From an uncultured bacterium (GTDB lineage: Bacteria; Omnitrophota; Omnitrophia; Omnitrophales; JACQLI01), in the NCBI GenBank assembly GCA_964565495.1, contig CAZMFE010000003.1, positions 1 through 25,962 of the forward strand: DNA of 25,962 bases. Direction: 5' to 3'. Both the position numbers and the translations under genes were made by a program. Every line of letters begins with the position of its first letter. The first letter of the stretch is position 1. The notes beneath the pieces are model-generated. The model was not told the DNA's origin and ran no database searches. It saw nothing but the letters and a program-made list of their open reading frames with translations. Of this stretch, positions 57 to 25,962 are shown one piece after another.

Positions 57-641
57 ATGCGGCATCGGCGAAGACGAAGACGACTGGGGGTCAACACCCA
101 TCACCGGAAAGCGCTGCTCCGTAATCTCGTGGGAGGTTTGGCGCTCCACCGCCAGATCCAAACGACTTATGCCCGGGCGAAAGAGACATCCCGCTTGGCT
201 GATAAAATGGTGACTCTGGCAAAGGAGGGAACCCTGGCCGCAAGGAGGCAGTTGATTCGCCGCCTCGGTTCCTCGGAGCTGGCGAAGATTTTTATCGAAG
301 AAATTGCGCCGCGGCTGCAAAACCGAAACGGAGGGTTTACACGGGTCCTGAAACTGGGGAATCGCTCGGGCGACGGGGCCGCGACGGCCCTCGTACAGTT
401 TTCAGTTCCGATCGAGCTCGCACCCAAGGAAAAGAAGCCGAAAAGGGAAAAAAAGCCCCCAGCGCCCAAACCCGCCGCGGAAGAGAAACCGGCCGTCGCC
501 AAAGAAAGAAAGAAAGAGCCGAAGCCCGAAAAGGAGAAGTTGGAAAAGAAGGCCGAGCCTAAAGAAGAGACTCAAAAGCGCGGCGGGTTCCTCGCCAAAC
601 TCAGGAAATTTCTGACCGGCGAAGAAGACAAAAACAAATAG
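57..641 (+). CDS. rplQ: 50S ribosomal protein bL17 with a ~77-aa Lys/Glu/Pro-rich C-terminal extension
   Basis: MRHR...LG...HRKALLRNL, IQTTYARAKE, RNGGFTRVLKLGNRSGDGA are L17 hallmarks. SD AGGAG at 42-46. Confidence 0.97.
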   Translation: MRHRRRRRRLGVNTHHRKALLRNLVGGLALHRQIQTTYARAKETSRLADKMVTLAKEGTLAARRQLIRRLGSSELAKIFIEEIAPRLQNRNGGFTRVLKLGNRSGDGAATALVQFSVPIELAPKEKKPKREKKPPAPKPAAEEKPAVAKERKKEPKPEKEKLEKKAEPKEETQKRGGFLAKLRKFLTGEEDKNK

Positions 642-1829: not shown

Positions 1830-1857
1830 CCAACAGAATTCCTCCCAGCCTCTCGGC

Positions 1858-1901
1858 GCCTGCCTGCGCGGAGCCGAAGCACCGCTTCGGCGAAGGCGGG
1901 C
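1858..1901. repeat. REP-like compound hairpin
   Basis: GCCGAAGC (1873-1880)/GCTTCGGC (1884-1891) inner stem. GCCTGCCT (1858-1865)/AGGCGGGC (1894-1901) outer stem with one G-U pair. Confidence 0.75.
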
Positions 1902-1941
1902 TCAGTCGCTTTGGCTTCGGCAAGAACTACGGGCGCTTCAG

Positions 1942-2030
1942 CCGGGGTCCCACCTCGGGATCGCAAGAGTTGTCTCAATGAGGTCCCTGCCTGCCGGCAG
2001 GCAAGGCGCGGAGGGGGAAGAAATTTTCTT
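1942..2030 (+). repeat. Copy of the right arm of the 4184-4356 foldback element with a nested 16-bp perfect palindrome
   Basis: Shares CCTCGGGATCGC, GAGTTGTC and CGCGGAGGGGGAA(G/T)AAATTTTCTT with the ~4283-4357 arm. Contains TGCCTGCCGGCAGGCA at 1988-2003. Confidence 0.85.
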
Positions 2031-2035
2031 TAAGG

Positions 2036-2044
2036 TGATATAAT
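2036..2044 (+). promoter_or_regulatory. Extended -10 promoter for mfd
   Basis: TG-A-TATAAT is a perfect extended -10. It implies the start is GTG 2063 rather than TTG 2045. Confidence 0.55.
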
Positions 2045-2062
2045 TTGGGTAGCGGTTCCATC

Positions 2063-3967
2063 GTGGAAGGGCTCGAGCGCTTGTATGTCGGGCAGACGAT
2101 CGAGCGGGGCTCCTTGGAGACCCTCCTCCAGAAGCTCCGTTACAGGAGGAGAGACTTTGTCTCCGCGCCCGGTGAATACGCCGACCGCGGCGCGACCTTC
2201 GACATTTATCCCCTCACCTATCGCGCGCCGATCCGCTTAGGTTTCGAACTCGACACCATCGTTTCCATCCGCGATTTTTCTCCCCACGAAGGCAAAAGTC
2301 TCACGGGTTTTGAAGAAGTCTTCCTGGCCCCCCTTTCGGAACCTTTCGAGGCTCGGGTCAGCCTTGTTCGCAAGCGATTCGAGGAATTCGAACCGCTCAC
2401 CGAGGTGACGGACCTCGAAGCGGGAGACACTGTGGTTCACCTCCAATATGGGATCGCTCGTTACCTCGGGACGAAAAAGATTGAGATCCAGGGAGAGGCA
2501 AGACGTTGTATGGCCCTGGAGTTCGCGGATCGCGAAATCCTTTATCTCGAAATCACCGAGCCCCTGGAACGCTATATCGGAATCGAAGGGAAAAAGCCGA
2601 AACTGACGCGGCTTCATACCAAAGAATGGGAACGTGCAAAAACCAAGGCCCGGCTCGCCGTCGAAAATGTGGCCCGCGATCTTTTGTCTCTGGCGGCCCG
2701 AAGAGAACTTGGGTGTGGGTTTGCTTTTCCCAAAGACAGTCCCTGGCAGGGTGAGTTCGAGGAAGAGTTTCCTTTCGAAGAGACCGCGGATCAGCTCAAG
2801 GCGACGGAGGAAGTCAAACGGGACATGGAATCCCCTCGGCCAATGGATCGGCTCCTTTGCGGCGACGTGGGCTTTGGAAAGACGGAAGTGGCGATGCGCG
2901 CGGCCTTTAAAGCGGTGACGGCAGGGAAACAAGTCGCCTTTCTCGTTCCCACGACGGTTTTGGCCGAACAACACTGGCTTGTTTTCAAGGAGCGGGCGAA
3001 AAATTTCCCGCTCGCAATCGAAGTCCTCTCCCGTTTCCGTTCCAGGAAAGATCAGATTCAAGTCCTTAAAGGTCTTGAAGAGGGGAAAGTGGATGTCGTG
3101 ATCGGAACGCACCGGCTTCTTTCGGGGGATGTCCAATTTAAAGATTTGGGCCTCGTCGTGATCGATGAAGAGCAGCGTTTTGGCGTGGCCCACAAAGAGA
3201 AATTGAAAAAACTGCGGGAGGTGGTCGATCTCCTCACGTTAACCGCAACCCCCATTCCTCGAACGCTTTATCTTTCCCTCATGGGGGCGCGGGACATGTC
3301 CATGATCCATACCCCTCCCCGGACCCGCCTCCCCATCGAAACCCAAGTGATCGAATACGATGACCGAAAGATTGCCGATGCGATTCAGAGGGAGCTCGCG
3401 CGCGGGGGACAAATCTATTTCGTTCATAACCGGATCGCTTCGATTGAGCGGGTCCACGAGCATTTAAAAACGATTCTTCCGGACGTCCGATTCGGGATTG
3501 CCCATGGTCAGATGCCGTCACGGGCCCTTGAGAAGATCATGAAAGACTTTTTCGAGAAAAGAATCGATTGTTTGATTGCCACCAATATCATCGAATCGGG
3601 TCTCGATATTCCCAATGTCAACACGATCATTGTGAACCGGGCGGATCGATTTGGTCTGGCGGATCTTTACCAGCTGCGGGGACGCGTGGGCCGGTTTATC
3701 GGGAAGCGGCAGGCCTACGGCTATTTTATTGTTCCCCGGAATTGGGTCATGACGCTCGATGCCGAGAAACGCCTGGAAGCCATTGAGCGATTCACGGAAT
3801 TGGGGGCGGGATTCAAGATCGCTTTGAAGGATCTCGAAATTCGGGGCGCGGGGAATATCTTGGGTCACGAACAAAGCGGCTTCATTTATGCCGTGGGTTT
3901 TGACCTCTATTGCCGTATGCTCCGCCGCGCCATCGAAGAGATGAAAGGCAGATCGGCCAAGCGCTAA
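2063..3967 (+). CDS. mfd: Transcription-repair coupling factor, short form (~634 aa: D2-like + RID + SF2 translocase + TRG, no D7)
   Basis: PGEYADRGATFDIYP (UvrB-homology D2), GDTVVHLQYGIARYLG (CarD-like RID), GDVGFGKTEVAMRAA, DEEQRFG, TATPIPRTL, QLRGRVGR, DLEIRGAGNILGHEQSG. Start is uncertain (2045 TTG or 2063 GTG). Confidence 0.92.
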   Translation: MEGLERLYVGQTIERGSLETLLQKLRYRRRDFVSAPGEYADRGATFDIYPLTYRAPIRLGFELDTIVSIRDFSPHEGKSLTGFEEVFLAPLSEPFEARVSLVRKRFEEFEPLTEVTDLEAGDTVVHLQYGIARYLGTKKIEIQGEARRCMALEFADREILYLEITEPLERYIGIEGKKPKLTRLHTKEWERAKTKARLAVENVARDLLSLAARRELGCGFAFPKDSPWQGEFEEEFPFEETADQLKATEEVKRDMESPRPMDRLLCGDVGFGKTEVAMRAAFKAVTAGKQVAFLVPTTVLAEQHWLVFKERAKNFPLAIEVLSRFRSRKDQIQVLKGLEEGKVDVVIGTHRLLSGDVQFKDLGLVVIDEEQRFGVAHKEKLKKLREVVDLLTLTATPIPRTLYLSLMGARDMSMIHTPPRTRLPIETQVIEYDDRKIADAIQRELARGGQIYFVHNRIASIERVHEHLKTILPDVRFGIAHGQMPSRALEKIMKDFFEKRIDCLIATNIIESGLDIPNVNTIIVNRADRFGLADLYQLRGRVGRFIGKRQAYGYFIVPRNWVMTLDAEKRLEAIERFTELGAGFKIALKDLEIRGAGNILGHEQSGFIYAVGFDLYCRMLRRAIEEMKGRSAKR

Positions 3968-3985
3968 AGGGTAAAATCTCTTCTC

Positions 3986-4176
3986 GCCAAGACCCCCCTC
4001 GCCTGGGCCTCAGTCGGATTCTACGCGAGAAATCTACACGAGACGGCGTGGGAAGACCCTTCCGCCGTTCCCCCGCCCCAAAAGATTGGGCGGTGGCCGT
4101 CGGCTTTCCCACGCCGTCTCGTAAGATTTCTAATGACTCCGAATCCGATTCGGCCCTTGGCGAGGGGGTTCTTGGC
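3986..4176. repeat. ~190-bp imperfect foldback (long hairpin) element A
   Basis: Nested stems: 3986-4002/4159-4176, 4013-4020/4141-4148, 4027-4034/4124-4131, perfect 17 bp 4037-4053/4106-4122, 4072-4077/4088-4093. Confidence 0.9.
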
Positions 4177-4183
4177 TGTCAGG

Positions 4184-4356
4184 AGAAAATTTATTCCCCC
4201 GCCGCAATCAGGGCCGAAGGGGGTCCTACAACTCTTGCGATCTCGAGGTGGGGAAAACCCGGCCAGAAGTCTCCTTCTGTGGGACCGGGTGGGGCCCCGC
4301 CTCGGGATCGCTTAGAGTTGTCGCGAGAAGGCCCGCGGAGGGGGAATAAATTTTCT
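4184..4356. repeat. ~173-bp imperfect foldback (MITE-like) element B
   Basis: Terminal IR AGAAAATTTATTCCCC (4184-4199)/GGGGAATAAATTTTCT (4341-4356). Inner pairs ACAACTCT/AGAGTTGT, GCGATC/GATCGC, ACCCGG/CCGGGT. Confidence 0.88.
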
Positions 4357-4404
4357 TCTTCCAGGCGAGGGGATTCTGCCGTTGAACAGGAAAAGATTCT
4401 GCAA

Positions 4405-9783: not shown

Positions 9784-10686
9784 ATGTCCTCGACTCAAAT
9801 TGCCCTTCTTAAAAAGTATGGTCTTTCCATTCGTGGGATAAGGGGCCAGCATCTTCTCATCGACCCAAATATTCAGCGAAAAATTGTTGAGCTTCTTGAC
9901 CCAAAGCCCAAGGAGTGGGTTCTTGAAATAGGCCCGGGTCTTGGGGCGCTCACTCAAGAAATTTTGGTAGCGGGGGCATCGGTCATTGCTGTGGAGAAGG
10001 ACAAGCGGTTTTGTGAGATCTTGGAGGGGGAATTGGGACCAGATTACAAAAATAGGCTTTGGGTTGGAAATGCGGATGTCTTGAAAATCGACTTGGAGAA
10101 ATTGCTGAAGCGTGTTCTTGGGTCGTCATTGCGGGCGCTCCGCCACTGCAAAGTTATTTCAAATCTCCCTTACTACATCACCTCGCCTGTTCTTTTCTGG
10201 TTAATTGAGAATCGTAGCTACGTCGAAAAAGCGGTCTTGATGATGCAGCGCGAAGTGGCCAAGCGAATTCTCGCTCAGCCGGGAAACAAGGACTATGGGC
10301 GGCTCACCCTTGCCATTCGCTATTATGCCGAGGTCCACCGCGCCTTTGACGTGTCACGAAATTGTTTCAGCCCGAGGCCGGATGTCGACTCAAGTGTGAT
10401 CACCCTCGACTTTCACTCCCCCTCCAAACTCCCTCGAGGGATCAATCAAGATTTCCTTTTTCATTTGATTCAGGTTGCCTTCGGGGCACGGAGAAAAACT
10501 TTGCTTGCTCGATTAACAAGTGATTCCCAGATTGGAAAATCACGAGGCGAACTGGTTGAAATTTTACGAAAGGTTGGGATCCGCGAAAAAGCCCGGGGAG
10601 AAGACCTCCTCCTTAAAGATTTTATGGCAATCGCCATGTCATTGCGAGGAGCGGAGCGAAGCAATGACGTTCTGCCCATTTATTGA
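9784..10686 (+). CDS. rsmA: 16S rRNA m6,2A1518/1519 dimethyltransferase (KsgA)
   Basis: GQHLLID, VLEIGPGLGALT, SNLPYYI, MMQREVAKR, FSPRPDVDS, FGARRKTL. ATG 9784 lies downstream of the promoter, whereas the ORF-track start 9730 is the -35 box. Confidence 0.95.
   Translation: MSSTQIALLKKYGLSIRGIRGQHLLIDPNIQRKIVELLDPKPKEWVLEIGPGLGALTQEILVAGASVIAVEKDKRFCEILEGELGPDYKNRLWVGNADVLKIDLEKLLKRVLGSSLRALRHCKVISNLPYYITSPVLFWLIENRSYVEKAVLMMQREVAKRILAQPGNKDYGRLTLAIRYYAEVHRAFDVSRNCFSPRPDVDSSVITLDFHSPSKLPRGINQDFLFHLIQVAFGARRKTLLARLTSDSQIGKSRGELVEILRKVGIREKARGEDLLLKDFMAIAMSLRGAERSNDVLPIY
10638..10668. repeat. GTCATTGCG-family palindrome within the rsmA 3' end
   Basis: GTCATTGCGAGGAGCGGAGCGAAGCAATGAC. Its first 20 bp are the exact reverse complement of 14539-14558. 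Confidence 0.85.
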
Positions 10687-10712
10687 CAATAGGAATCGTA
10701 TCATGTTACTAT
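10683..10712 (+). promoter_or_regulatory. Sigma70-like promoter for the gatCAB-tsaD operon
   Basis: TTGACA (10683-10688), 18-bp spacer, TG-T-TACTAT (10707-10712). SD AGGAG ~9 nt before gatC. Confidence 0.55.
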
Positions 10713-10739
10713 CCCTAAATAAGAAAAGGAGTTACGACG

Positions 10740-11024
10740 ATGGCGTTTGAGATTGGCGAGATTGCGGAACTGGCGCGTTTGAGCTTAAGGCCTGAAGAAA
10801 AGGCGAAATTTCAGAAAGAGATCGAATCGATCCTTGCCTATGTGGAGCAGTTGAAAAAGGTCCCGACAGATCATGTTGAGGCAACAAGCCACGTCCTTAA
10901 TCTTGAAAATGTGTTTCGTGAAGATAAAATCAAGCCCTGTGAGGTCCGTGAAGCCGTCCTCAAACACGCTCCCCATCGGGAAGGGAATTTCTTCAAGGTC
11001 CCGAAAGTCATCGAGCAGGAATAA
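10740..11024 (+). CDS. gatC: Asp/Glu-tRNA amidotransferase subunit C
   Basis: IAELARL…ILAYVEQL…NVFRED…FFKVPKVI, 94 aa, directly before gatA. Confidence 0.95.
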   Translation: MAFEIGEIAELARLSLRPEEKAKFQKEIESILAYVEQLKKVPTDHVEATSHVLNLENVFREDKIKPCEVREAVLKHAPHREGNFFKVPKVIEQE

Positions 11025-12442
11025 TGTCCAATCCCCGTTTTACTCTCAAAGAGGCAATTGCCTTTGCTCGCGAAGAAGGCCCGGAAAAACTCATCGACTC
11101 CCTTGCCCAGCGCGTGAAAGAGGTTGATTCCAAGATCAACGCCTACATCCACTTCGATCCGGCACGGATTGAGGGGGCGCACCGGAGCGGCCACCTCCAT
11201 GGAGTTCCAATTTCGATTAAGGACAATATCTGTATTCGCGGGTGGGAGACGACGTGCGCGTCGAAAATCTTAGAAGGTTTCACCCCCCCTTATGACGCCA
11301 CCGTCATTGAGAAATTGCGCGAGGCGGGGGCCACGCTCTTTGGAAAATGCAACATGGATGAATTTGCCTTCGGTTCCTCTACCGAAACTTCGGTCTTCGG
11401 GCCAACCCGAAATCCCTGGAATTTAGATCGAGTCCCCGGAGGATCGAGCGGGGGATCCGCCGCCGCCGTGGCCGCCGATGAGGCCTTCGCCGCCTTGGGG
11501 ACGGATACCGGCGGATCAATTCGTCTGCCTGCCGCCTTTTGCGGCGTGGTAGGCCTGAAACCCACCTATGGGAGAGTCTCTCGTTATGGTTTGGTCGCGT
11601 TTGGCTCGAGTTTCGATCAAATCGGCCCCCTCACAAAGACCGTGGAAGATTGTGCGATCCTGATGAATATCCTCGCAGGACATGATGAACGGGACTCGAC
11701 TTCGGTGGATCTTCCCGTTCCGGATTACACGTTGTCCCTGAAGCGGGGCGTGAAAGGTCTTAAGATCGGTCTTCCTAAGGAGTATTTTGTCAAAGGGATG
11801 GATCCCGAAGTGGAGCAGGCGGTACGCGAGGCAGCGAAAGTGTATCAAAAATTAGGAGCCACGACTCAAGAAGTCGGTCTTCCTCATACGCCTCATTCGA
11901 TTGCGGTCTATTACATTGTGGCCGTCGCCGAGGCGAGTTCCAACTTGGGAAGATATGACGGAGTCCAATACGGGTTTCGCGCCCAAAATGGAAATTTGCG
12001 GGACATGTATTTTGAGACTCGGGATCTTGGATTTGGAGCTGAGGCCAAGCGGAGGATTCTTTTAGGAACCTTTGTCTTGTCCGCGGGTTATCACGAGGCC
12101 TATTATCGAAAGGGCCAAAAGGTAAGGACTTTGATTCGGGAAGATTTTGAGAAAGTCTTCAAAGAAGTCGATTTGCTCCTCACCCCCGTTTCTCCCACCC
12201 CTCCTTTCAAACTCGGGGAGAAAATGACCGATCCCTTGACGATGTATCTTTCCGATATCTTCACGATTTCTGTCAATTTAGCAGGCGTTCCCGCGATGGC
12301 CCTTCCCTCGGGCTTCACAAAATCCGGACTCCCGATCGGAATGCAGCTTATCGCGCGCCCCTTCGCCGAAGAGGCAATTTTCCAAGCCGCTTACGCTTAC
12401 GAGCAGGAAACCCAATGGTTCAAACGCAAACCCAAACTTTGA
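11024..12442 (+). CDS. gatA: Asp/Glu-tRNA amidotransferase subunit A
   Basis: GVPISIKDNI, GKCNMDEFAFGSS, PGGSSGGSAAAVAA, GTDTGGSIRLPA amidase signature. Confidence 0.97.
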   Translation: MSNPRFTLKEAIAFAREEGPEKLIDSLAQRVKEVDSKINAYIHFDPARIEGAHRSGHLHGVPISIKDNICIRGWETTCASKILEGFTPPYDATVIEKLREAGATLFGKCNMDEFAFGSSTETSVFGPTRNPWNLDRVPGGSSGGSAAAVAADEAFAALGTDTGGSIRLPAAFCGVVGLKPTYGRVSRYGLVAFGSSFDQIGPLTKTVEDCAILMNILAGHDERDSTSVDLPVPDYTLSLKRGVKGLKIGLPKEYFVKGMDPEVEQAVREAAKVYQKLGATTQEVGLPHTPHSIAVYYIVAVAEASSNLGRYDGVQYGFRAQNGNLRDMYFETRDLGFGAEAKRRILLGTFVLSAGYHEAYYRKGQKVRTLIREDFEKVFKEVDLLLTPVSPTPPFKLGEKMTDPLTMYLSDIFTISVNLAGVPAMALPSGFTKSGLPIGMQLIARPFAEEAIFQAAYAYEQETQWFKRKPKL

Positions 12443-13866: not shown

Positions 13867-14876
13867 TGTTAACTCTTGGAATCGAAACCTCCTGTGACGA
13901 GACTTCTTGCGCTGTTTTAGAAAACGGCAATCGGATCCTTTCCAACGTCGTCTCTTCAAGCCTTGCAAAGCACAAGCCCTTCGGGGGTGTGGTTCCCGAA
14001 ATTGCTTCCCGGCATTGTCTGGAACAGATCGATTTTGTTTTCAAAACAGCGCTTCGTAAAACCAAGGTCGCCGAGAAAGATTTAGGCCTGATTGCGGTCA
14101 CCCAGGGACCCGGTCTGGTGGGTTCCCTCCTCGTCGGATTATCCTTTGCGAAGGCCCTGGCTTATCAACTCGGAATTCCTTTTGTCGGTGTGAATCACCT
14201 CGAGGGCCACTTGGCAGCTAACTTTATCGGTCGACCCCTCCCTCGGCATCCGTATATTGGACTCATCGTTTCTGGAGGGCACACGGAACTGACGGTTCAT
14301 CGCAACGGTTCCGTAAAAATTCTAGGGTCAACCGTCGACGACGCGGTGGGAGAGGCGTATGATAAGAGCGCGAAACTTTTAGGGCTGGGATATCCGGGGG
14401 GCCCCTTGATCGACCGGCTCGCTCAGAAGGGGAACCCCCAGGCGTTCCGTTTTACGAAACCGAGACAGGAAGGCCGGTTTGATTTTAGTTTCAGCGGGAT
14501 TAAGACTGCGGTACGAAACGTCATTGCGAGCCCCGTCTGCTCCGCTCCTCGCAATGACAGAATCTTAAATGATCTTTGTGCCAGTTTTCAGGAGACGGTG
14601 GTTGGCTGGCTCGTTGAGAAAACAATCGACGCCTGCCGGACCCAAAAGGTGAAAGAGGTTGTGGTTGGGGGAGGGGTGAGCGCGAATTCGAGGCTTCGCC
14701 GCCTCCTTGGCGAGGAAGCAAGACCCTACGGAATCCGGGTTTGGTTTCCTCCTCTGGCTCTGACGGTTGATAATGCCGCCATGATTGCCCGCCGGGGTTG
14801 GGAACTTTATAGAAATGGTAAACGTTCGGATTGGAAGATTTCAGCCTTACCGAATATGAGAATAGGAGAATCGTGA
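13866..14876 (+). CDS. tsaD: tRNA N6-threonylcarbamoyladenosine transferase
   Basis: LGIETSCDET, GGVVPEIASR, NHLEGH, VSGGHT, DDAVGEAYDK, DFSFSGIKTA, GGVSAN, DNAAMIA. Confidence 0.97.
   Translation: MLTLGIETSCDETSCAVLENGNRILSNVVSSSLAKHKPFGGVVPEIASRHCLEQIDFVFKTALRKTKVAEKDLGLIAVTQGPGLVGSLLVGLSFAKALAYQLGIPFVGVNHLEGHLAANFIGRPLPRHPYIGLIVSGGHTELTVHRNGSVKILGSTVDDAVGEAYDKSAKLLGLGYPGGPLIDRLAQKGNPQAFRFTKPRQEGRFDFSFSGIKTAVRNVIASPVCSAPRNDRILNDLCASFQETVVGWLVEKTIDACRTQKVKEVVVGGGVSANSRLRRLLGEEARPYGIRVWFPPLALTVDNAAMIARRGWELYRNGKRSDWKISALPNMRIGES
14520..14558. repeat. 39-bp GTCATTGCG-family palindrome in frame inside tsaD
   Basis: Perfect 11-bp IR GTCATTGCGAG/CTCGCAATGAC, encoding VIASPVCSAPRND. Confidence 0.85.
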
Positions 14877-19761: not shown

Positions 19762-19832
19762 TGCCCGATGGTGAAATGGTATCACACCGCCCTTTGGAGG
19801 CGAGGTTCCTGGTTCGAATCCAGGTCGGGCAG
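19762..19832 (+). tRNA. tRNA-Gln (anticodon UUG), CCA not encoded
   Basis: Acceptor TGCCCGA/TCGGGCA (U1-A72), D stem GTGA/TCAC, anticodon loop CTTTGGA, T arm CCTGG-TTCGAAT-CCAGG, discriminator G. One C-A mismatch in the anticodon stem. Confidence 0.96.
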
Positions 19833-21278: not shown

Positions 21279-24200
21279 ATGCGGAAAAAGAGTAGGCGTA
21301 GAGTTCTCGGGGTGTGCACGGGAATTTTATTTTTTTTCTTCCCGCTCCAGGAAACTTACCCCCTTCCTTCCGTTGAAGAAGTAGTGGAGGGGACCGCCAC
21401 GGTTGAAAAAGTCGACAAGACCACTCTCAATGTTACCGCTTCCGGCGATTCGATCATTCATTGGAACTCCTTTGACATCGCCGCTAATGAGACGGTGAAT
21501 TTCTTCCTTCCTTCCCTGGACAATTTTTCACTCAACCGGGTTCAAAGCGGAAGCACCACCCAAGTCCTCGGCACGCTCACCGCGAATGGCAATTTGATTC
21601 TGGTGAATACCGACGGATTTTATTTCGGTTCGACCGCCTCGGTGAATGTCGGCGGACTCATTGCCTCGACCCATGACATTACCAACGCGAATTTTCTTTC
21701 CGGTCATTATCTCTTTGCCGGAACGGAGACCAACCATCCCACCTCCACTTCGATCCTCCATGAGGGGAGTATCCTCACTCGAGAGGGTGGGATGGCGGTT
21801 TTGGTGGCCGATGCGATCGAGAATCGCGGCACGATCGAGGCGCCCCTCGGAACCGTGGCCTTGGCGGCCGGGGAAGTGGTCACAGTCGCAATTTCTCCCA
21901 ATGGCCTCATCACGATTGGAATCGATCAGCCCACCGCTCATACGATCTTGGATAAAGAGGGTCAGCCTATCACCGAACAAGTCAAAAATTCAGGGGAGCT
22001 CACGGCGAATAGCGGCAAAGTCTCCCTCCAGGCCCAGGCCGTGGATCAAATCTTTCAAAGCGCCATTAATCTCGCGGGAACCGTGCGGGCCGATACGGTC
22101 CAAGTGGGCAAGGATGGAGTCATTGAAATTGTGGCTTCTGGACCGATCCAGACCGATGCCACCCTCAGCGCCGACAAGGGAGAAATAGTTCTTGATACTT
22201 CTAAAGATCTTACCGTCACAGGCCCTGCCACCACTTATGGCAACACCACTTTTCAGGCGGATCGGGATATTCATGTGGAGAGCGCTGTCACCACGCATTC
22301 GGGGAACCTCTCCTTCAAAGCCGATTTTGACTTGGATGGGGTGGGGGCCTTCCTTCAGGCGGCTGGAACCACGCTTACCACCACAGGCTTTGGAGATATC
22401 TTGATTTCTGCCTCCGGGGAGAGCACCCTCGCCAATATTGTCTCAGCGGGGAGCCTCTATCTGAATCAAGCCGGAGCCCTAGTCACTTATACCCAGCATC
22501 CCAATGCCATCTTGACCCTCGCCGGTTCCCTCACGATTGGGGCGGGGGTGAGCCTCAAGGCCGCCAACGCGGTTTATGAGGTAGCCAAGGACTGGATCAA
22601 TCTAGGGGACTTTATTCCTGGGTTATCCCTCGTGAAGCTCGTGGGGCCGCTGGATGCCCAAGTAAAAGGCTCAAACAAGTTCAATGATTTTATGATCATT
22701 GGACCTGGGAAAACGGTTATTTTTGACTCAGGCACCACTCAAGATATTGTCGGCACTCTTACCTTTCAGGGCGGATTCGGGAAGCTTCTTACCCTCAGAT
22801 CCTCCATTCCCGCCACCCCTTGGAAGATCAATCCCACAGGTGTGAGAGATATCTCTTATGTGGACCTCAAGGACTCCACAAATATCAATATCCATGGGCC
22901 CCCGATTGTAGTCTTTTATAGCAAAAACTCCCTCGCGAACTCGGGCTGGGATTTCTCCGAAGCTGGTCCCGTGTGGACCGGTCTCGGAAATTCGTCTTTT
23001 TGGTCTGATCCTCTCAATTGGAACGGCGGATTCGTGCCCGGCCCAGGCGACAGGGTCACATTTACCTCCCTTTCTTCCTCCAATTCTTTAATTGATCCTC
23101 TTTTTGAAGGGACTATTTTAAGCCTTATCCTTGACTCTTCTTACTCCGGAACCGTCTCCCTCAGCCGGAACCTCACTGTGTCAAAAGACGTCACTCTGCA
23201 GGGAGGCACCTTGTCGCTTAACGCTTATAGCTTAACGCTTGGCTGGAACTGGACCCTCAATGGCGGCATCTTCGAAGCCGGCACCTCCACCGTGGTCTTC
23301 AATGATGCCTCCCGAGTCTCTACCATTTCGGGAAGCAATACCTTCTATAACTTCAGCTCTCTGACCCCCTCTAAATATATCCTTTTTGAAGCGGGAGAGA
23401 CTCAGACGATCCGGGGAACCTTCAAGATTGAAGGAGCCTACAGCCGGCACATCCGGATGCTTTCTACTGAGACCGGAAGCCATTGGTATATCGATCCCCA
23501 AGGCCCCCGGGACATTAGCTACGCCTGGGTAGAGGATGCTTACAACATCAATCCGATTGAAATCATCATGATCGAATCCACCAATCAGAGGAATGGCGTG
23601 GGCTGGGACCCCACAGCCACCTGGACAAATGGCGGCCTGGACGGAGTCTGGTCCAATTGTTCCAACTGGTCCGGACTCGGAGGTTGTCCTGCTACGCCTG
23701 GTTCGGGAGACGATGTGGTCTTCGATGCCACCAGTGACTCGAACTCAAGTGTTGATGCCGCCTTCACCATCACCACCCTTTCCTTGAATTCCGGTTACAA
23801 CAGCACGGTCACCTTGAACGCCGCTCTGAGTGTCACTAGCGGCGCCGCCGATGTCACGATCAATAGCGGCACTCTTAACGCCAATAATCGGACCCTCACG
23901 ATAAGTGATGATTTCATCGTGGGAGCGAGCGGCACCTTCTCCGAAGGGACAAGCACGGTCGTCTTTCTTGACAATCTTGGCTCTACCATCAATGTCAACG
24001 TGAGCGAGACCTTTAACAACCTCACGATCAATATAACACACAGCGCCGATCTCACCATCACCAGTGGTGACACCCTCATTGTCGCAGGCACTCTCACCCT
24101 GACCAATGGAAACGTCCTCACCGGCACGATCGATGCCCGCGGGAATATCACCCAAGCCTCCACCTTTGACGGCGGCTCGGCCATTATTGACTTTGGAGAC

Positions 24201-25962
24201 AACGCCGTGGCTCAGACCTACACCTCCAACGGCGGCAAAGGTCCCTGGATTCGCTTTGATAACGCCTCCGATGCCTCCGATTCGGTCGTCCTCAATGCCG
24301 CTACCACCTTCTTTGGACTTGACATCACTGCAGACTTTTCCGGCACCGTTCCCTTCACTTATAACGGCTTCAATCTCACCTTAAGCGGCAGCAACACCGA
24401 AATTGGAGGTTTCACCCAGGCCGCAGGGACCTTCAATGCCCCGACGACCCTTACCATCGGCACCGTCGGCAACACGGACAGGGCCAACTTCACCATCTCG
24501 GGCGGCACCTTCAATGAGGGGACCACGACGATCTTTGGCGCATCCGCCCCGGCGATCAATGTCAACGTGAGCGAGACTTTCACCGATCTTCAATTTAATT
24601 TACCGAACGGCAGTAACGGCACTATTACCAGCGGAGACACCCTGATTGTGACCGGCACCCTCACCCTGACCGATGGAACCATCCTCACCGGCACCATGGA
24701 AGCGCGGGGGAATGTCACAGTCGCCTCGACCTACGACACTGGCAGCACCGCTCCTCTTCTTTTCAGCGGAAGCGCAGCCAGCGGACTCGCCACCCAAACC
24801 TTCGATCTCACAGGAGCCACAGGGGCTTTCAACGCCGACATCACCATCACCAAGGACGAAGGACAAGTGAACCTCCTCTCCGCCCTCGTGATGGATGCGA
24901 CGAACCAGGATTTGACACTTTCGAATGCGACGAGCATTTTGTATTTGAATGGAAGCAACCTTACCGTCAACGGAACAGGGAGCACATTTTCCAATAACGG
25001 GGTCCTTCAGTTACAAGGTAGTGAGACCGCGACCCTTCCGAGCGGCGCCAACGACACCAATTCCGGCACTTGGACATACATCGGCGATGGGGACGGCGTC
25101 CAGGATACGTTTGATTTGACAGATTTCGGTACAAGCGATTATTACAACCTTACGATCAACACCACCGACACCAATGACATCATCCGATTAACCTCAGGAC
25201 TCGCCATCGATGGGACTCTCATCGTGACCTCCGGCATTCTCTCTTTAAACGGTAGCAGCATTTCAGACATCTCCGGAGGAGACACTGCCGCCCGCGGAAA
25301 TATCGCCGGGACGGTCCGCTTGCAGGGTGGGGAGACCGTCTTCTGGACCACCAACGACACGGATTCCGGGACCTATGAATACGTCGGCGACGGCGCCGGC
25401 GGCACCGTGACGTTTACCCTCCTTTCCTTCACCGGAACCGATTATAACAATCTTACGATCAACTCAACGGCCGGAGATGAAAACTTTCAGGTGGGAGCTG
25501 CGCTTGTTGTAGCAGGCGATTTAACCACAACGAGTGGAACGATCACCGGAACGAATGATCTTACCGTCCAAGGAGGCGATGTCACAGGCAATGGCGACAT
25601 TAATCTCACCGGTGGCACCTTCACTCTCGACGGCACCGGAAACTTCGGCGGGAATACGGCCTGGGATTTCTACAACCTCACCTTTGGCGATGGCGCAGGA
25701 TCGGCCACCACCACCAAGACGGGCACCGGCTCCATCACCGTCGCCAATGATCTCACGATTGCGGCCAGTCAGAACCTGGATATCGGAGATGATACCTGGA
25801 CCGTGACCGGGGACCTGACCATGACAGGAAATATCTCTGCCGGCACCGGCAACCTGACCGTCAACGGAGGCGCTGTCACCGGCAACGGAGACATCACCCT
25901 CACCGCAGGCACCTTCACTCTCGACGGCACCGGAAACTTCGGCGGGAATACGGCCTGGGATT
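21279..25962 (+). CDS. Giant secreted filamentous-haemagglutinin/TpsA-like protein, 3'-truncated by the window (at least 1561 aa)
   Basis: Signal peptide MRKKSRRRVLGVCTGILFFFFPLQETYP, haemagglutination-activity/TPS domain (WNSFDI…ETVNF…LNRV…GTLTANG…LVNTDGFYFG…VGGLIAST), Thr/Gly/Asn-rich beta-helix-like repeats. I read no stop in this frame to the window end, which explains its absence from the ORF track. Confidence 0.92.
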   Translation, partial: MRKKSRRRVLGVCTGILFFFFPLQETYPLPSVEEVVEGTATVEKVDKTTLNVTASGDSIIHWNSFDIAANETVNFFLPSLDNFSLNRVQSGSTTQVLGTLTANGNLILVNTDGFYFGSTASVNVGGLIASTHDITNANFLSGHYLFAGTETNHPTSTSILHEGSILTREGGMAVLVADAIENRGTIEAPLGTVALAAGEVVTVAISPNGLITIGIDQPTAHTILDKEGQPITEQVKNSGELTANSGKVSLQAQAVDQIFQSAINLAGTVRADTVQVGKDGVIEIVASGPIQTDATLSADKGEIVLDTSKDLTVTGPATTYGNTTFQADRDIHVESAVTTHSGNLSFKADFDLDGVGAFLQAAGTTLTTTGFGDILISASGESTLANIVSAGSLYLNQAGALVTYTQHPNAILTLAGSLTIGAGVSLKAANAVYEVAKDWINLGDFIPGLSLVKLVGPLDAQVKGSNKFNDFMIIGPGKTVIFDSGTTQDIVGTLTFQGGFGKLLTLRSSIPATPWKINPTGVRDISYVDLKDSTNINIHGPPIVVFYSKNSLANSGWDFSEAGPVWTGLGNSSFWSDPLNWNGGFVPGPGDRVTFTSLSSSNSLIDPLFEGTILSLILDSSYSGTVSLSRNLTVSKDVTLQGGTLSLNAYSLTLGWNWTLNGGIFEAGTSTVVFNDASRVSTISGSNTFYNFSSLTPSKYILFEAGETQTIRGTFKIEGAYSRHIRMLSTETGSHWYIDPQGPRDISYAWVEDAYNINPIEIIMIESTNQRNGVGWDPTATWTNGGLDGVWSNCSNWSGLGGCPATPGSGDDVVFDATSDSNSSVDAAFTITTLSLNSGYNSTVTLNAALSVTSGAADVTINSGTLNANNRTLTISDDFIVGASGTFSEGTSTVVFLDNLGSTINVNVSETFNNLTINITHSADLTITSGDTLIVAGTLTLTNGNVLTGTIDARGNITQASTFDGGSAIIDFGDNAVAQTYTSNGGKGPWIRFDNASDASDSVVLNAATTFFGLDITADFSGTVPFTYNGFNLTLSGSNTEIGGFTQAAGTFNAPTTLTIGTVGNTDRANFTISGGTFNEGTTTIFGASAPAINVNVSETFTDLQFNLPNGSNGTITSGDTLIVTGTLTLTDGTILTGTMEARGNVTVASTYDTGSTAPLLFSGSAASGLATQTFDLTGATGAFNADITITKDEGQVNLLSALVMDATNQDLTLSNATSILYLNGSNLTVNGTGSTFSNNGVLQLQGSETATLPSGANDTNSGTWTYIGDGDGVQDTFDLTDFGTSDYYNLTINTTDTNDIIRLTSGLAIDGTLIVTSGILSLNGSSISDISGGDTAARGNIAGTVRLQGGETVFWTTNDTDSGTYEYVGDGAGGTVTFTLLSFTGTDYNNLTINSTAGDENFQVGAALVVAGDLTTTSGTITGTNDLTVQGGDVTGNGDINLTGGTFTLDGTGNFGGNTAWDFYNLTFGDGAGSATTTKTGTGSITVANDLTIAASQNLDIGDDTWTVTGDLTMTGNISAGTGNLTVNGGAVTGNGDITLTAGTFTLDGTGNFGGNTAWD
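25614..25962 (+). repeat. Exact 55-bp direct repeat inside the adhesin
   Basis: 25614-25668 is identical to 25908-25962 (offset 294 bp = 98 codons), encoding GTFTLDGTGNFGGNTAWD. Confidence 0.95.

What the first reader, a model, noticed from the sequence alone, without database searches (positions are those of the whole stretch)
2045..3967. Minimal, possibly de-repressed Mfd (~634-640 aa versus ~1150 aa canonical)
Seen: a D2-like UvrA-binding segment is followed almost directly by the RID, then the complete translocase and TRG motif. The protein stops ~20 aa later, no D1a/D1b/D3 or D7 (TRCF) sequence is recognisable, and both flanks are hairpin DNA. Known: in E. coli D7 masks the D2 UvrA surface and its removal de-represses translocation. 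Inference: a natural streamlined Mfd that may be constitutively active or controlled in trans. Intact motifs and a strong promoter argue against a pseudogene.
Basis: partly seen in the sequence, partly recalled or inferred. Interest (0 to 1): 0.72.

Follow-up and report, generated by a model that had tools for sequence, protein, structure and literature searches.

The report
Minimal four-domain Mfd, conserved across Omnitrophota

Summary
ORF 2045..3967 (+) encodes 640 aa from TTG, or 634 aa from GTG 2063. Residues 15-113 align to E. coli Mfd D2 (132-232) and residues 119-635 to RID-relay-D5-D6-TRG-hook (472-988). D1a, most of D1b, D3 and D7 are absent, with no remnant in the flanks.

It is not decay or misassembly. 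About 240 cluster representatives at 90% identity, down to 53% identity and labelled almost only Omnitrophica/Omnitrophota, are all 599-683 aa with the same four domains. They form one clade apart from full-length Mfds (49/50 bootstraps). They sit in the conserved rplQ-aminotransferase-mfd-surA-pdxA context. Purifying selection acts on every domain, D2 included.

The motor and TRG motifs, the relay Trp, its hook partner and both D2 arginines that bind UvrA in E. coli are conserved. The third UvrA-surface residue (F185) is always polar.

E. coli experiments show that Mfd lacking D7 still performs transcription-coupled repair, with derepressed ATPase and translocation. The likeliest reading is therefore a working, clamp-free Mfd. 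"Constitutively active" remains an inference. A D7 encoded elsewhere was excluded only within about 10 kb. The "strong promoter" claim is not supported.

I found no paper describing this architecture. It is a new variant of a known kind, of moderate interest.

The parts
2045..3967 (+). Short mfd ORF: 640 aa from TTG 2045. Gene callers and most homologs start at the equivalent of GTG 2063, giving 634 aa.
   Evidence: N-termini of 123 family members cluster at residue 7 or 8.
2032..2044 (+). AAGGTGAT Shine-Dalgarno-like site overlapping TGATATAAT (extended -10-like), directly before TTG 2045. Its function is undecided.
   Evidence: Read from the sequence. No full sigma-70 promoter was found by the scan.
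2081..2338 (+). D2 (UvrB_inter / UB2H fold), the UvrA-binding domain; residues 13-98.
   Evidence: Pfam E = 4.5e-16. Aligns to E. coli Mfd 132-213 and to the D2-only chain 4dfc. pLDDT 80-90. R48 and R64 (= Eco R165 and R181) are invariant in 123 sequences; E68 (= Eco F185) is always polar.
2339..2413 (+). Linker, residues 99-123. It has one short helix that aligns to the first ~18 residues of E. coli D1b (215-232) and is otherwise low-confidence and flexible. It replaces about 240 residues of D1b plus D3.
   Evidence: alignment. pLDDT below 50 for model residues 94-116. After the C-terminal tail it is the least conserved segment, at 0.58.
2414..2560 (+). RID (D4), the RNA polymerase beta-subunit interaction domain; residues 124-172.
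   Evidence: Pfam CarD_TRCF_RID E = 5.2e-10. Aligns to Eco 477-525. Eco L499 corresponds to I146, which is I/L/F/M across the family.
2621..2710 (+). Relay helix, residues ~193-222, containing W195 (= Eco W550).
   Evidence: Model helix 187-216 in 634-aa numbering. W195 is invariant in 123 sequences.
2789..3265 (+). Translocase lobe 1 (D5): Walker A GFGKT, Walker B DEEQRFG, motif III TATPIPRT.
   Evidence: Pfam DEAD E = 5.8e-23. Motifs are 0.8-1.0 conserved.
3380..3697 (+). Translocase lobe 2 (D6): motif VI QLRGRVGR.
   Evidence: Pfam Helicase_C E = 3.5e-21. Motif VI is invariant.
3755..3862 (+). TRG (translocation in RecG) helical hairpin, with R576 (= Eco R929) and R600 (= Eco R953).
   Evidence: alignment. 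Both arginines are invariant in 123 sequences. Model helices 565-576 and 583-594.
3875..3961 (+). Hook helices, with V617 (= Eco I970), followed by a short variable tail. The protein ends where the E. coli D6-D7 linker begins.
   Evidence: Family C-termini fall between query positions 634 and 658.
1843..2030 (.). Upstream spacer: one copy of a long-hairpin repeat element. It is not part of the gene.
3986..4372 (.). Downstream spacer: two tandem ~190-nt long-hairpin repeat elements (3986-4176 and 4184-4372). It holds no D7 remnant.

Best explanation
This is the functional Omnitrophota ortholog of Mfd, reduced by one ancestral set of domain losses to D2 - short linker - RID - relay helix - D5/D6 translocase with TRG motif and hook helices. 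Inferred mechanism: the RID tethers it to the beta subunit of a stalled RNA polymerase. The RecG-like motor translocates on upstream duplex DNA and pushes the polymerase forward and off. D2 has no D7 to mask it and is tethered by a flexible ~25-residue linker, so it stays exposed to recruit UvrA (UvrABC are present in Omnitrophota genomes). Without D1a/D1b/D3 and D7, the E. coli-type D2-D7 clamp cannot exist. Any restraint on the motor must therefore come from the conserved hook-relay node, from RNA polymerase dependence, or from expression level. Shown here: the architecture, orthology, phylum-wide conservation, selection, and residue conservation. Inferred: RNA polymerase displacement, UvrA recruitment, and derepression.
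For: Architecture. The structure model resolves D2, RID, relay helix, both lobes, TRG and hook, with a disordered linker, and its best structural matches are all Mfd. Conservation: 120 + 119 cluster representatives, 53-100% identical and 599-683 aa, none with a TRCF domain, labelled almost only Omnitrophica/Omnitrophota. At 50% clustering only 2 of the best 150 representatives are short and the other 148 are 1,006-1,283 aa. The short forms separate from long forms in 49/50 NJ bootstraps. Positional orthology: rpoA-rplQ-aat-mfd-surA-pdxA, and the full-length loci L005 and L007 also carry surA-pdxA downstream. Selection: pN 0.10-0.34 against saturated pS 0.72-0.84 for the whole gene; for D2, pN is 0.08-0.14 against pS 0.52-0.57 in the closest pairs. 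Invariant in the family: catalytic and TRG residues, W195, and D2 R48/R64; V617 is V in 120 of 123 and I in 3. No D7, D1a or D1b-D3 signal in the window or in about 160 kb of Omnitrophota loci, while the controls score strongly. Two Omnitrophota genomes each list uvrA, uvrB, uvrC and mfd at one copy (PMC10066038 supplementary file 6). Established biochemistry: E. coli Mfd lacking D7 has >5-fold higher ATPase, translocates without RNAP, and still displaces RNAP in a RID-dependent way (PMC1874598). It also supports TCR and the MFD phenotype in vitro and in vivo, whereas the D2 surface R165/R181/F185 is essential (PMC3025350). Thermus Mfd is naturally not autoinhibited (PMC13453472).
Against: No biochemical data exist for any member. 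The third UvrA-surface residue (Eco F185) is E/D/Q/R/N in all 123 short sequences, against an aromatic or Leu in 117 of 148 full-length relatives, so the UvrA interface may be altered or lost. E. coli experiments removed D7 or the whole UvrB-homology module, never D1a/D1b/D3 while keeping D2, so D2 function outside its D1 scaffold is untested apart from the isolated D2-UvrA complex 4dfc. Smith et al. 2012 argued that a permanently active Mfd is unlikely to be tolerated. Genome-wide absence of a separate D7 was not tested.
Confidence: 0.7

Rival explanations
1. The architecture is the same, but the enzyme is still autoinhibited by a different intramolecular mechanism. Either the conserved hook-relay interface (W195-V617) keeps the motor off until the RID binds RNA polymerase, or D2 docks on the translocase lobes.
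For: W195 is invariant and V617 nearly so. In E. coli, W550A alone derepresses the motor, which defines a second regulatory node independent of the clamp (PMC3488230). The authors of that paper doubt that a permanently active Mfd is tolerated.
Against: E. coli Mfd lacking D7 keeps W550 and I970 yet is derepressed. The linker between D2 and RID is predicted to be disordered, and no coordinates or PAE were available to test docking.
Confidence: 0.3
2. It has become an RNA polymerase release or recycling factor that no longer couples to nucleotide excision repair. D2 would be kept for another role.
For: The F185 equivalent is never aromatic in the short family. Natural Mfds without repair coupling exist in Buchnera, Wigglesworthia and chloroplasts.
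Against: Those precedents lost D2 and also lack UvrABC, whereas here D2 is retained under purifying selection. R48 and R64 are invariant. UvrABC are present in the two Omnitrophota genomes that could be checked.
Confidence: 0.15
3. It is a split gene: D7 (and perhaps D1/D3) is encoded elsewhere in the genome and acts in trans.
For: Nothing direct. Only about 10 kb on each side could be inspected, and whole genomes could not be scanned.
Against: No D7, D1a or D1b-D3 profile hit in any frame of the 26-kb window or of the 10 Omnitrophota-type loci. No PF03461 among the neighbouring gene calls. The 369-aa gene after mfd in L018 is a membrane protein.
Confidence: 0.07
4. It is an extra, specialised paralog that sits alongside a canonical full-length Mfd.
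For: Not excluded for every genome.
Against: K03723 is counted once in both Omnitrophota genomes readable in PMC10066038 supplementary file 6. None of the named full-length hits is labelled Omnitrophota. The short gene occupies the mfd-surA-pdxA position that full-length mfd holds in L005 and L007.
Confidence: 0.03
5. It is a pseudogene, a recent truncation or an assembly artefact.
For: Repeat-rich spacers flank the gene in this window.
Against: About 240 independent cluster representatives have the same length and domains. pN is far below pS. All motifs are intact. Unitigs from run X1 tile most of the gene, short gaps aside, with 0 mismatches. Relatives lacking the repeats have the same gene ends.
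Confidence: 0.01

Closest known systems
Canonical bacterial Mfd/TRCF (E. coli Mfd, PDB 2eyq and 6x26; TIGR00580; KEGG K03723)
   Same: Orthologous D2, RID, relay helix, D5/D6 SF2 translocase, TRG motif and hook helices. About 50% identity over Eco 472-988 by eye from the alignment (not computed). It occupies the same genomic position as full-length mfd in other phyla.
   Different: It lacks D1a, nearly all of D1b, D3 and D7: 634-640 aa against about 1,150. It therefore cannot form the D2-D7 autoinhibitory clamp or the rigid N-terminal D1-D3 module. The F185 equivalent is polar.
Engineered E. coli Mfd lacking D7 (Smith 2007, PMC1874598; Manelyte 2010, PMC3025350)
   Same: No D7 and an unmasked D2. 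The E. coli construct shows this is compatible with RNAP displacement, transcription-coupled repair and mutation frequency decline, and that it derepresses ATPase and translocation.
   Different: The engineered protein keeps D1a, D1b and D3. It is a laboratory deletion, not a form fixed by evolution.
Natural Mfd variants without the UvrB-homology module (Buchnera aphidicola, Wigglesworthia glossinidia, Arabidopsis chloroplast; PMC3488230, PMC13453472)
   Same: They are natural, lineage-specific domain-loss variants of Mfd in reduced genomes.
   Different: The pattern is the opposite. Those variants lost D1/D2 and kept D7 and the hook-relay interface, in genomes without UvrABC. Omnitrophota keeps D2 and lost D7, in genomes with UvrABC.
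Thermus thermophilus Mfd (978 aa; PDB 6m6a; PMC13453472)
   Same: It is a natural Mfd reported to be constitutively derepressed, which supports the view that clamp autoinhibition is not universal.
   Different: Tth Mfd still has the UvrB-homology module and D7; its clamp is merely dynamic.
RecG
   Same: Homologous SF2 motor with a TRG motif (NCBIfam RecG models score 194-407 bits, all below their cutoffs; PDB 1gm5).
   Different: RecG has a wedge domain and no RID or D2. This protein has a RID and D2 and passes the Mfd equivalog cutoff.

Membership tests
Mfd / TRCF (TIGR00580, K03723) | RNA polymerase interaction domain (CarD_TRCF_RID, D4) | tested here: met
   Pfam PF02559 E = 5.2e-10, residues 124-168. 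Aligns to Eco 472-547. Beta-rich fold in the model.
Mfd / TRCF (TIGR00580, K03723) | RecG-like SF2 translocase with intact ATPase motifs | tested here: met
   DEAD and Helicase_C hits. Walker B, motif III and motif VI are essentially invariant and Walker A is 0.8-1.0 conserved in 123 sequences.
Mfd / TRCF (TIGR00580, K03723) | TRG motif and hook helices wrapping the relay helix | tested here: met
   R576 and R600 (= Eco R929 and R953), W195 (= W550) and V617 (= I970) are invariant or nearly so.
Mfd / TRCF (TIGR00580, K03723) | Curated equivalog score | tested here: met
   TIGR00580 scores 847.9 bits against a cutoff of 800. The full-length enterobacterial model PRK10689 scores 635 against 1329 and is not met.
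Mfd / TRCF (TIGR00580, K03723) | Complete UvrB-homology module (D1a-D2-D1b) | tested here: not met
   Only D2 is present. The D1a and D1b-D3 profiles find nothing.
Mfd / TRCF (TIGR00580, K03723) | C-terminal D7 (Pfam TRCF, PF03461) | tested here: not met
   No Pfam hit. The protein ends at the equivalent of Eco ~993. The D7 profile finds nothing in the window or the related loci.
Mfd / TRCF (TIGR00580, K03723) | ATP-dependent displacement of stalled RNAP and recruitment of UvrA | not testable with these tools
   Inferred from conserved residues and from E. coli Mfd-deltaD7 data.
Natural BHM-less Mfd (Buchnera / Wigglesworthia / chloroplast type) | Loss of D1/D2 with retention of D7, in genomes lacking UvrABC | tested here: not met
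   D2 is present and D7 absent. uvrA, uvrB and uvrC are present in two Omnitrophota genomes.
RecG | N-terminal wedge domain and RecG equivalog score | tested here: not met
   All RecG NCBIfam models score below cutoff (best 406.9 against 718), and the N-terminus is D2 plus RID.

The most novel reading that the evidence does not exclude
Omnitrophota runs transcription-coupled repair with a naturally clamp-free Mfd. A bare D2 on a flexible tether would be sufficient for UvrA hand-off, and D1a, D1b, D3 and D7 would be dispensable. This would be a phylum-wide natural counterpart of a derepressed mutant. It would imply either that constitutive Mfd motor activity is tolerated in these cells or that an as yet unknown regulator replaces D7.
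Probability: 0.45. Interest if true: 0.65.

Novelty: new variant of a known kind. Interest (0 to 1): 0.5.

Why it matters
Mfd regulation is currently understood through the E. coli D2-D7 clamp, and a 2026 study argues that this autoinhibition is not universal. A whole phylum that has kept only D2, RID and the motor is a natural test of which Mfd parts are needed for RNA polymerase displacement and UvrA hand-off. It is also a compact protein (~72 kDa) for structural and single-molecule work. It also raises the question of how cells tolerate an unmasked UvrA-binding surface and an unclamped motor. Separately, automatic annotation calls these proteins plain 'transcription-repair coupling factor', which hides the difference.

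Tried and rejected
1. D7, D1a and D1b-D3 profiles were searched against six-frame translations of the window and 18 loci. Only the full-length control loci hit, so there is no remnant in the spacers and no adjacent split gene.
2. The 369-aa unannotated gene directly after mfd in L018 was considered as a candidate D7. It is a polytopic membrane protein, so this was rejected.
3. The sigma-70 promoter scan found no + strand promoter upstream, so the 'strong promoter' claim was dropped.
4. An Rfam scan of the window found only a tRNA, so the hairpin spacers match no known RNA family.
5. Literature searches for Mfd with Omnitrophica or Omnitrophota, and for surveys of Mfd domain architecture, found nothing on this form. 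Two Omnitrophota genomics papers mention neither Mfd nor DNA repair in their text.
6. The look-up of encoding contigs on the window's own 634-aa product found no record.
7. The genome-contig scan with a single protein returned only 12 loci, 4 of them short-type, so the taxonomic survey rests on the protein searches instead.
8. No RNA-seq run holds the locus, so transcription and the start site could not be checked.
9. I first read the polar F185 equivalent as co-evolution with the loss of D7. I withdrew that reading because F185 is solvent-exposed in E. coli, not buried against D7.
10. It was redone with numpy distances.
11. A third database search with a D7 profile was not run. Full-length Mfds would fill the 120 listed hits, so it could not reveal a divergent standalone D7.
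Full report
**Observation.** The window holds an ORF at 2045..3967 on the + strand, 640 aa from a TTG. An in-frame TGA at 2036-2038 rules out a longer N-terminus. Gene callers and most homologs start at the equivalent of GTG 2063, giving 634 aa. Pfam finds UvrB_inter (residues 13-98), CarD_TRCF_RID (124-168), DEAD (249-407) and Helicase_C (446-551), and no TRCF (D7) domain. The NCBIfam Mfd equivalog TIGR00580 scores 847.9 bits against a cutoff of 800 but covers only profile positions 300-823 of 907. All RecG models fall well below their cutoffs.

Against solved structures, residues 15-113 align to E. coli Mfd 132-232. That is D2 plus the first helix of D1b, by my recollection of the published domain boundaries. 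Residues 119-635 align to E. coli 472-988, which is RID, relay helix, D5, D6, TRG motif and hook helices. Every residue is accounted for.

**Structure.** An AlphaFold model built on a 70-sequence family alignment has mean pLDDT 79 and pTM 0.68. It resolves a beta-rich D2, a disordered linker (model residues 94-116, pLDDT below 50), the RID, a 30-residue relay helix, both RecA-like lobes, the TRG hairpin and the hook helices. Its best structural matches are all Mfd structures. It covers about 70% of its own length but only about 40% of theirs.

**Not decay, misassembly or a split gene nearby.** I built profiles of D7, D1a and D1b-D3 from 148 full-length relatives. They hit the full-length control loci at E = 1e-18 to 1e-60. 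They find nothing in any frame of the 26-kb window, spacers included, and nothing better than E = 0.038 in ten Omnitrophota-type loci totalling about 160 kb. Neighbouring gene calls in four related contigs carry no PF03461 hit. A 369-aa gene that follows mfd in one relative is a polytopic membrane protein. Unitigs of a hot-spring metagenome run tile most of the gene, short gaps aside, with zero mismatches.

**Spread of the short form.** The two protein searches listed 120 and 119 further cluster representatives at 90% clustering. They are 53-100% identical to the window protein and all are 599-683 aa. All have the same four Pfam domains and none has a TRCF domain. Where a source names them, the label is almost always Candidatus Omnitrophica/Omnitrophota. 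The exceptions are one MAG each labelled Elusimicrobia, Verrucomicrobiae and plain 'bacterium'. The GTDB genome scan confirms Omnitrophota titles for the short loci.

In the exhaustive search of representatives at 50% clustering, only 2 of the best 150 are short. The other 148 are 1,006-1,283 aa and about 48-55% identical over the shared region. The nearest named long forms come from NPL-UPA2, Clostridia, Halonatronum, Zixibacteria and Marinimicrobia. A neighbour-joining tree of the shared RID-to-D6 core separates 33 short from 45 long sequences by a single split in 49 of 50 bootstrap replicates. That argues for one ancestral loss.

**Orthology and selection.** In Omnitrophota the gene sits in a conserved block: the ribosomal protein operon ending in rpoA and rplQ, then an aminotransferase, mfd, surA and pdxA. 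The window has the same order. The full-length mfd loci L005 and L007 also have surA-pdxA downstream, so the short gene is the positional ortholog.

Nei-Gojobori estimates against seven relatives give whole-gene pN of 0.10-0.34 against saturated pS of 0.72-0.84. D2 alone gives pN 0.08-0.14 against pS 0.52-0.57 in the closest pairs, or omega of roughly 0.09-0.14. Supplementary file 6 of Seymour et al. 2023 (PMC10066038) is a sheet titled 'KO counts per genome'. For the two genomes whose entries are readable, it lists uvrA, uvrB, uvrC and mfd at one copy each. That supports the presence of the repair partners and argues against a second mfd gene, but only for two genomes.

**Residue-level evidence.** Across 123 short sequences, Walker B, motif III and motif VI are essentially invariant and Walker A is 0.8-1.0 conserved. 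The TRG arginines R576 and R600 (E. coli R929 and R953) and the relay-helix W195 (E. coli W550) are invariant, and the hook residue V617 (E. coli I970) is V in 120 and I in 3. The RID residue matching E. coli L499 is I, L, F or M. In D2, R48 and R64 (E. coli R165 and R181) are invariant. The third residue of the E. coli UvrA-binding triad, F185, is E, D, Q, R or N in every short sequence. It is F, W, Y or L in 117 of 148 full-length relatives. According to Manelyte et al., F185 is solvent-exposed in E. coli and is not part of the buried D2-D7 contact. I therefore read this change as a possible alteration of the UvrA interface and not as a consequence of losing D7.

**Mechanism.** The experimental background is as follows.
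- E. coli Mfd lacking D7 has more than five-fold higher ATPase, displaces a triplex oligonucleotide without RNA polymerase, and still needs the RID-beta contact to remove stalled polymerase (PMC1874598).
- It supports transcription-coupled repair in vitro and in vivo and restores mutation frequency decline. Removing the UvrB-homology module or mutating R165/R181/F185 abolishes coupling (PMC3025350).
- D2 alone crystallised as a 93-residue chain (4dfc). From memory, not checked here, that entry is the D2-UvrA complex.

The Omnitrophota protein keeps the parts that those experiments show to be necessary, and it lacks the regulatory and scaffold parts. The most likely reading is a working coupling factor whose D2 is permanently unmasked and whose motor is not restrained by a clamp.

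Whether it is truly constitutively active is not shown. The hook-relay interface is a second regulatory node in E. coli (PMC3488230), and it is conserved here. Smith et al. also considered a permanently active Mfd unlikely to be tolerated. Brugger et al. 2026 report that Thermus Mfd is naturally derepressed, so the idea is not far-fetched.

**Comparison with what is known.** Natural Mfd variants are already on record in Buchnera, Wigglesworthia and chloroplasts. These lost the UvrB-homology module, kept D7, and live in genomes without UvrABC. The Omnitrophota form shows the opposite pattern. I found no paper that mentions Mfd together with Omnitrophica or Omnitrophota, and none that describes a natural Mfd without D7. 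Absence from the searchable library is not proof of absence. The sequences themselves are in public databases under the plain name 'transcription-repair coupling factor'. I therefore class this as a new variant of a known kind.

**Flanks and promoter.** The 215-nt upstream and 478-nt downstream spacers are made of long hairpins. 3980-4375 folded as DNA gives z = -12.9. They share ends (CGCGGAGGGGGAAnAAATTTTCTT) and internal arms in direct and inverted orientation. A homologous copy, 84-90% identical, lies in the spacer upstream of mfd in L001. Unitig depth reaches about 70x there against about 6x for the gene, and contigs diverge after position 2029. This is a multi-copy palindromic element inserted in intergenic DNA. 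Relatives have spacers of only 24-66 nt. It has no evident link to the domain loss.

The promoter claim rests on TGATATAAT at 2036-2044. That sequence abuts the TTG and overlaps a GGTGAT ribosome-binding-like site. The scan finds no -35/-10 pair, and no RNA data exist for the locus.

**Verdict.** Interest is moderate. The form is a clean natural minimal Mfd fixed across a phylum and is useful for the current debate on Mfd autoinhibition, but it agrees with what engineered deletions already predicted.

Noticed in passing
window 1843-2030, 3986-4176, 4184-4372; L001:657-1002: Multi-copy long-hairpin (~190 nt) palindromic elements fill the spacers on both sides of mfd. They share the ends CGCGGAGGGGGAAnAAATTTTCTT. 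Unitig depth is about 70x there against about 6x for the gene, and contigs diverge after 2029. A copy 84-90% identical lies in a different spacer of a related genome. No Rfam family matches. This looks like a REP- or MITE-like mobile element of these hot-spring Omnitrophota.
   Followed up: partly
window 57-641: Ribosomal protein L17 carries a Lys/Glu/Pro-rich C-terminal tail of about 70 aa (194 aa in total). The L17 genes of related loci are also long, at 181 and 193 aa.
   Followed up: no
window ~22000-25962: Periodic coding-type direct repeats with spacings of 567, 303 and 294 nt, in an ORF that runs off the window end. This may be one of the very long repetitive proteins reported for Omnitrophota.
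   Followed up: no
window 10637-10657 and 14539-14559: A perfect 21-nt inverted repeat pair (TGTCATTGCGAGGAGCGGAGC), 3.9 kb apart, bracketing the gatA-gatB-tsaD block. Its meaning is unknown.
   Followed up: no
L018:11899-13008: In one relative whose Mfd is 83% identical, a 369-aa polytopic membrane protein gene with no Pfam hit is inserted between mfd and surA, at the position of the window's hairpin spacer.
   Followed up: partly
window 19762-19832: A tRNA gene (Rfam RF00005, 60.5 bits) on the + strand.
   Followed up: no
L013 (GCA_053991395.1), 10001-11929: The most divergent short Mfd (P0123, 53% identity) sits in a different context: pseudouridine synthase upstream and clpB-hrcA-grpE-dnaK-dnaJ downstream. 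The rplQ-aat-mfd-surA synteny is therefore not universal within the short clade.
   Followed up: partly
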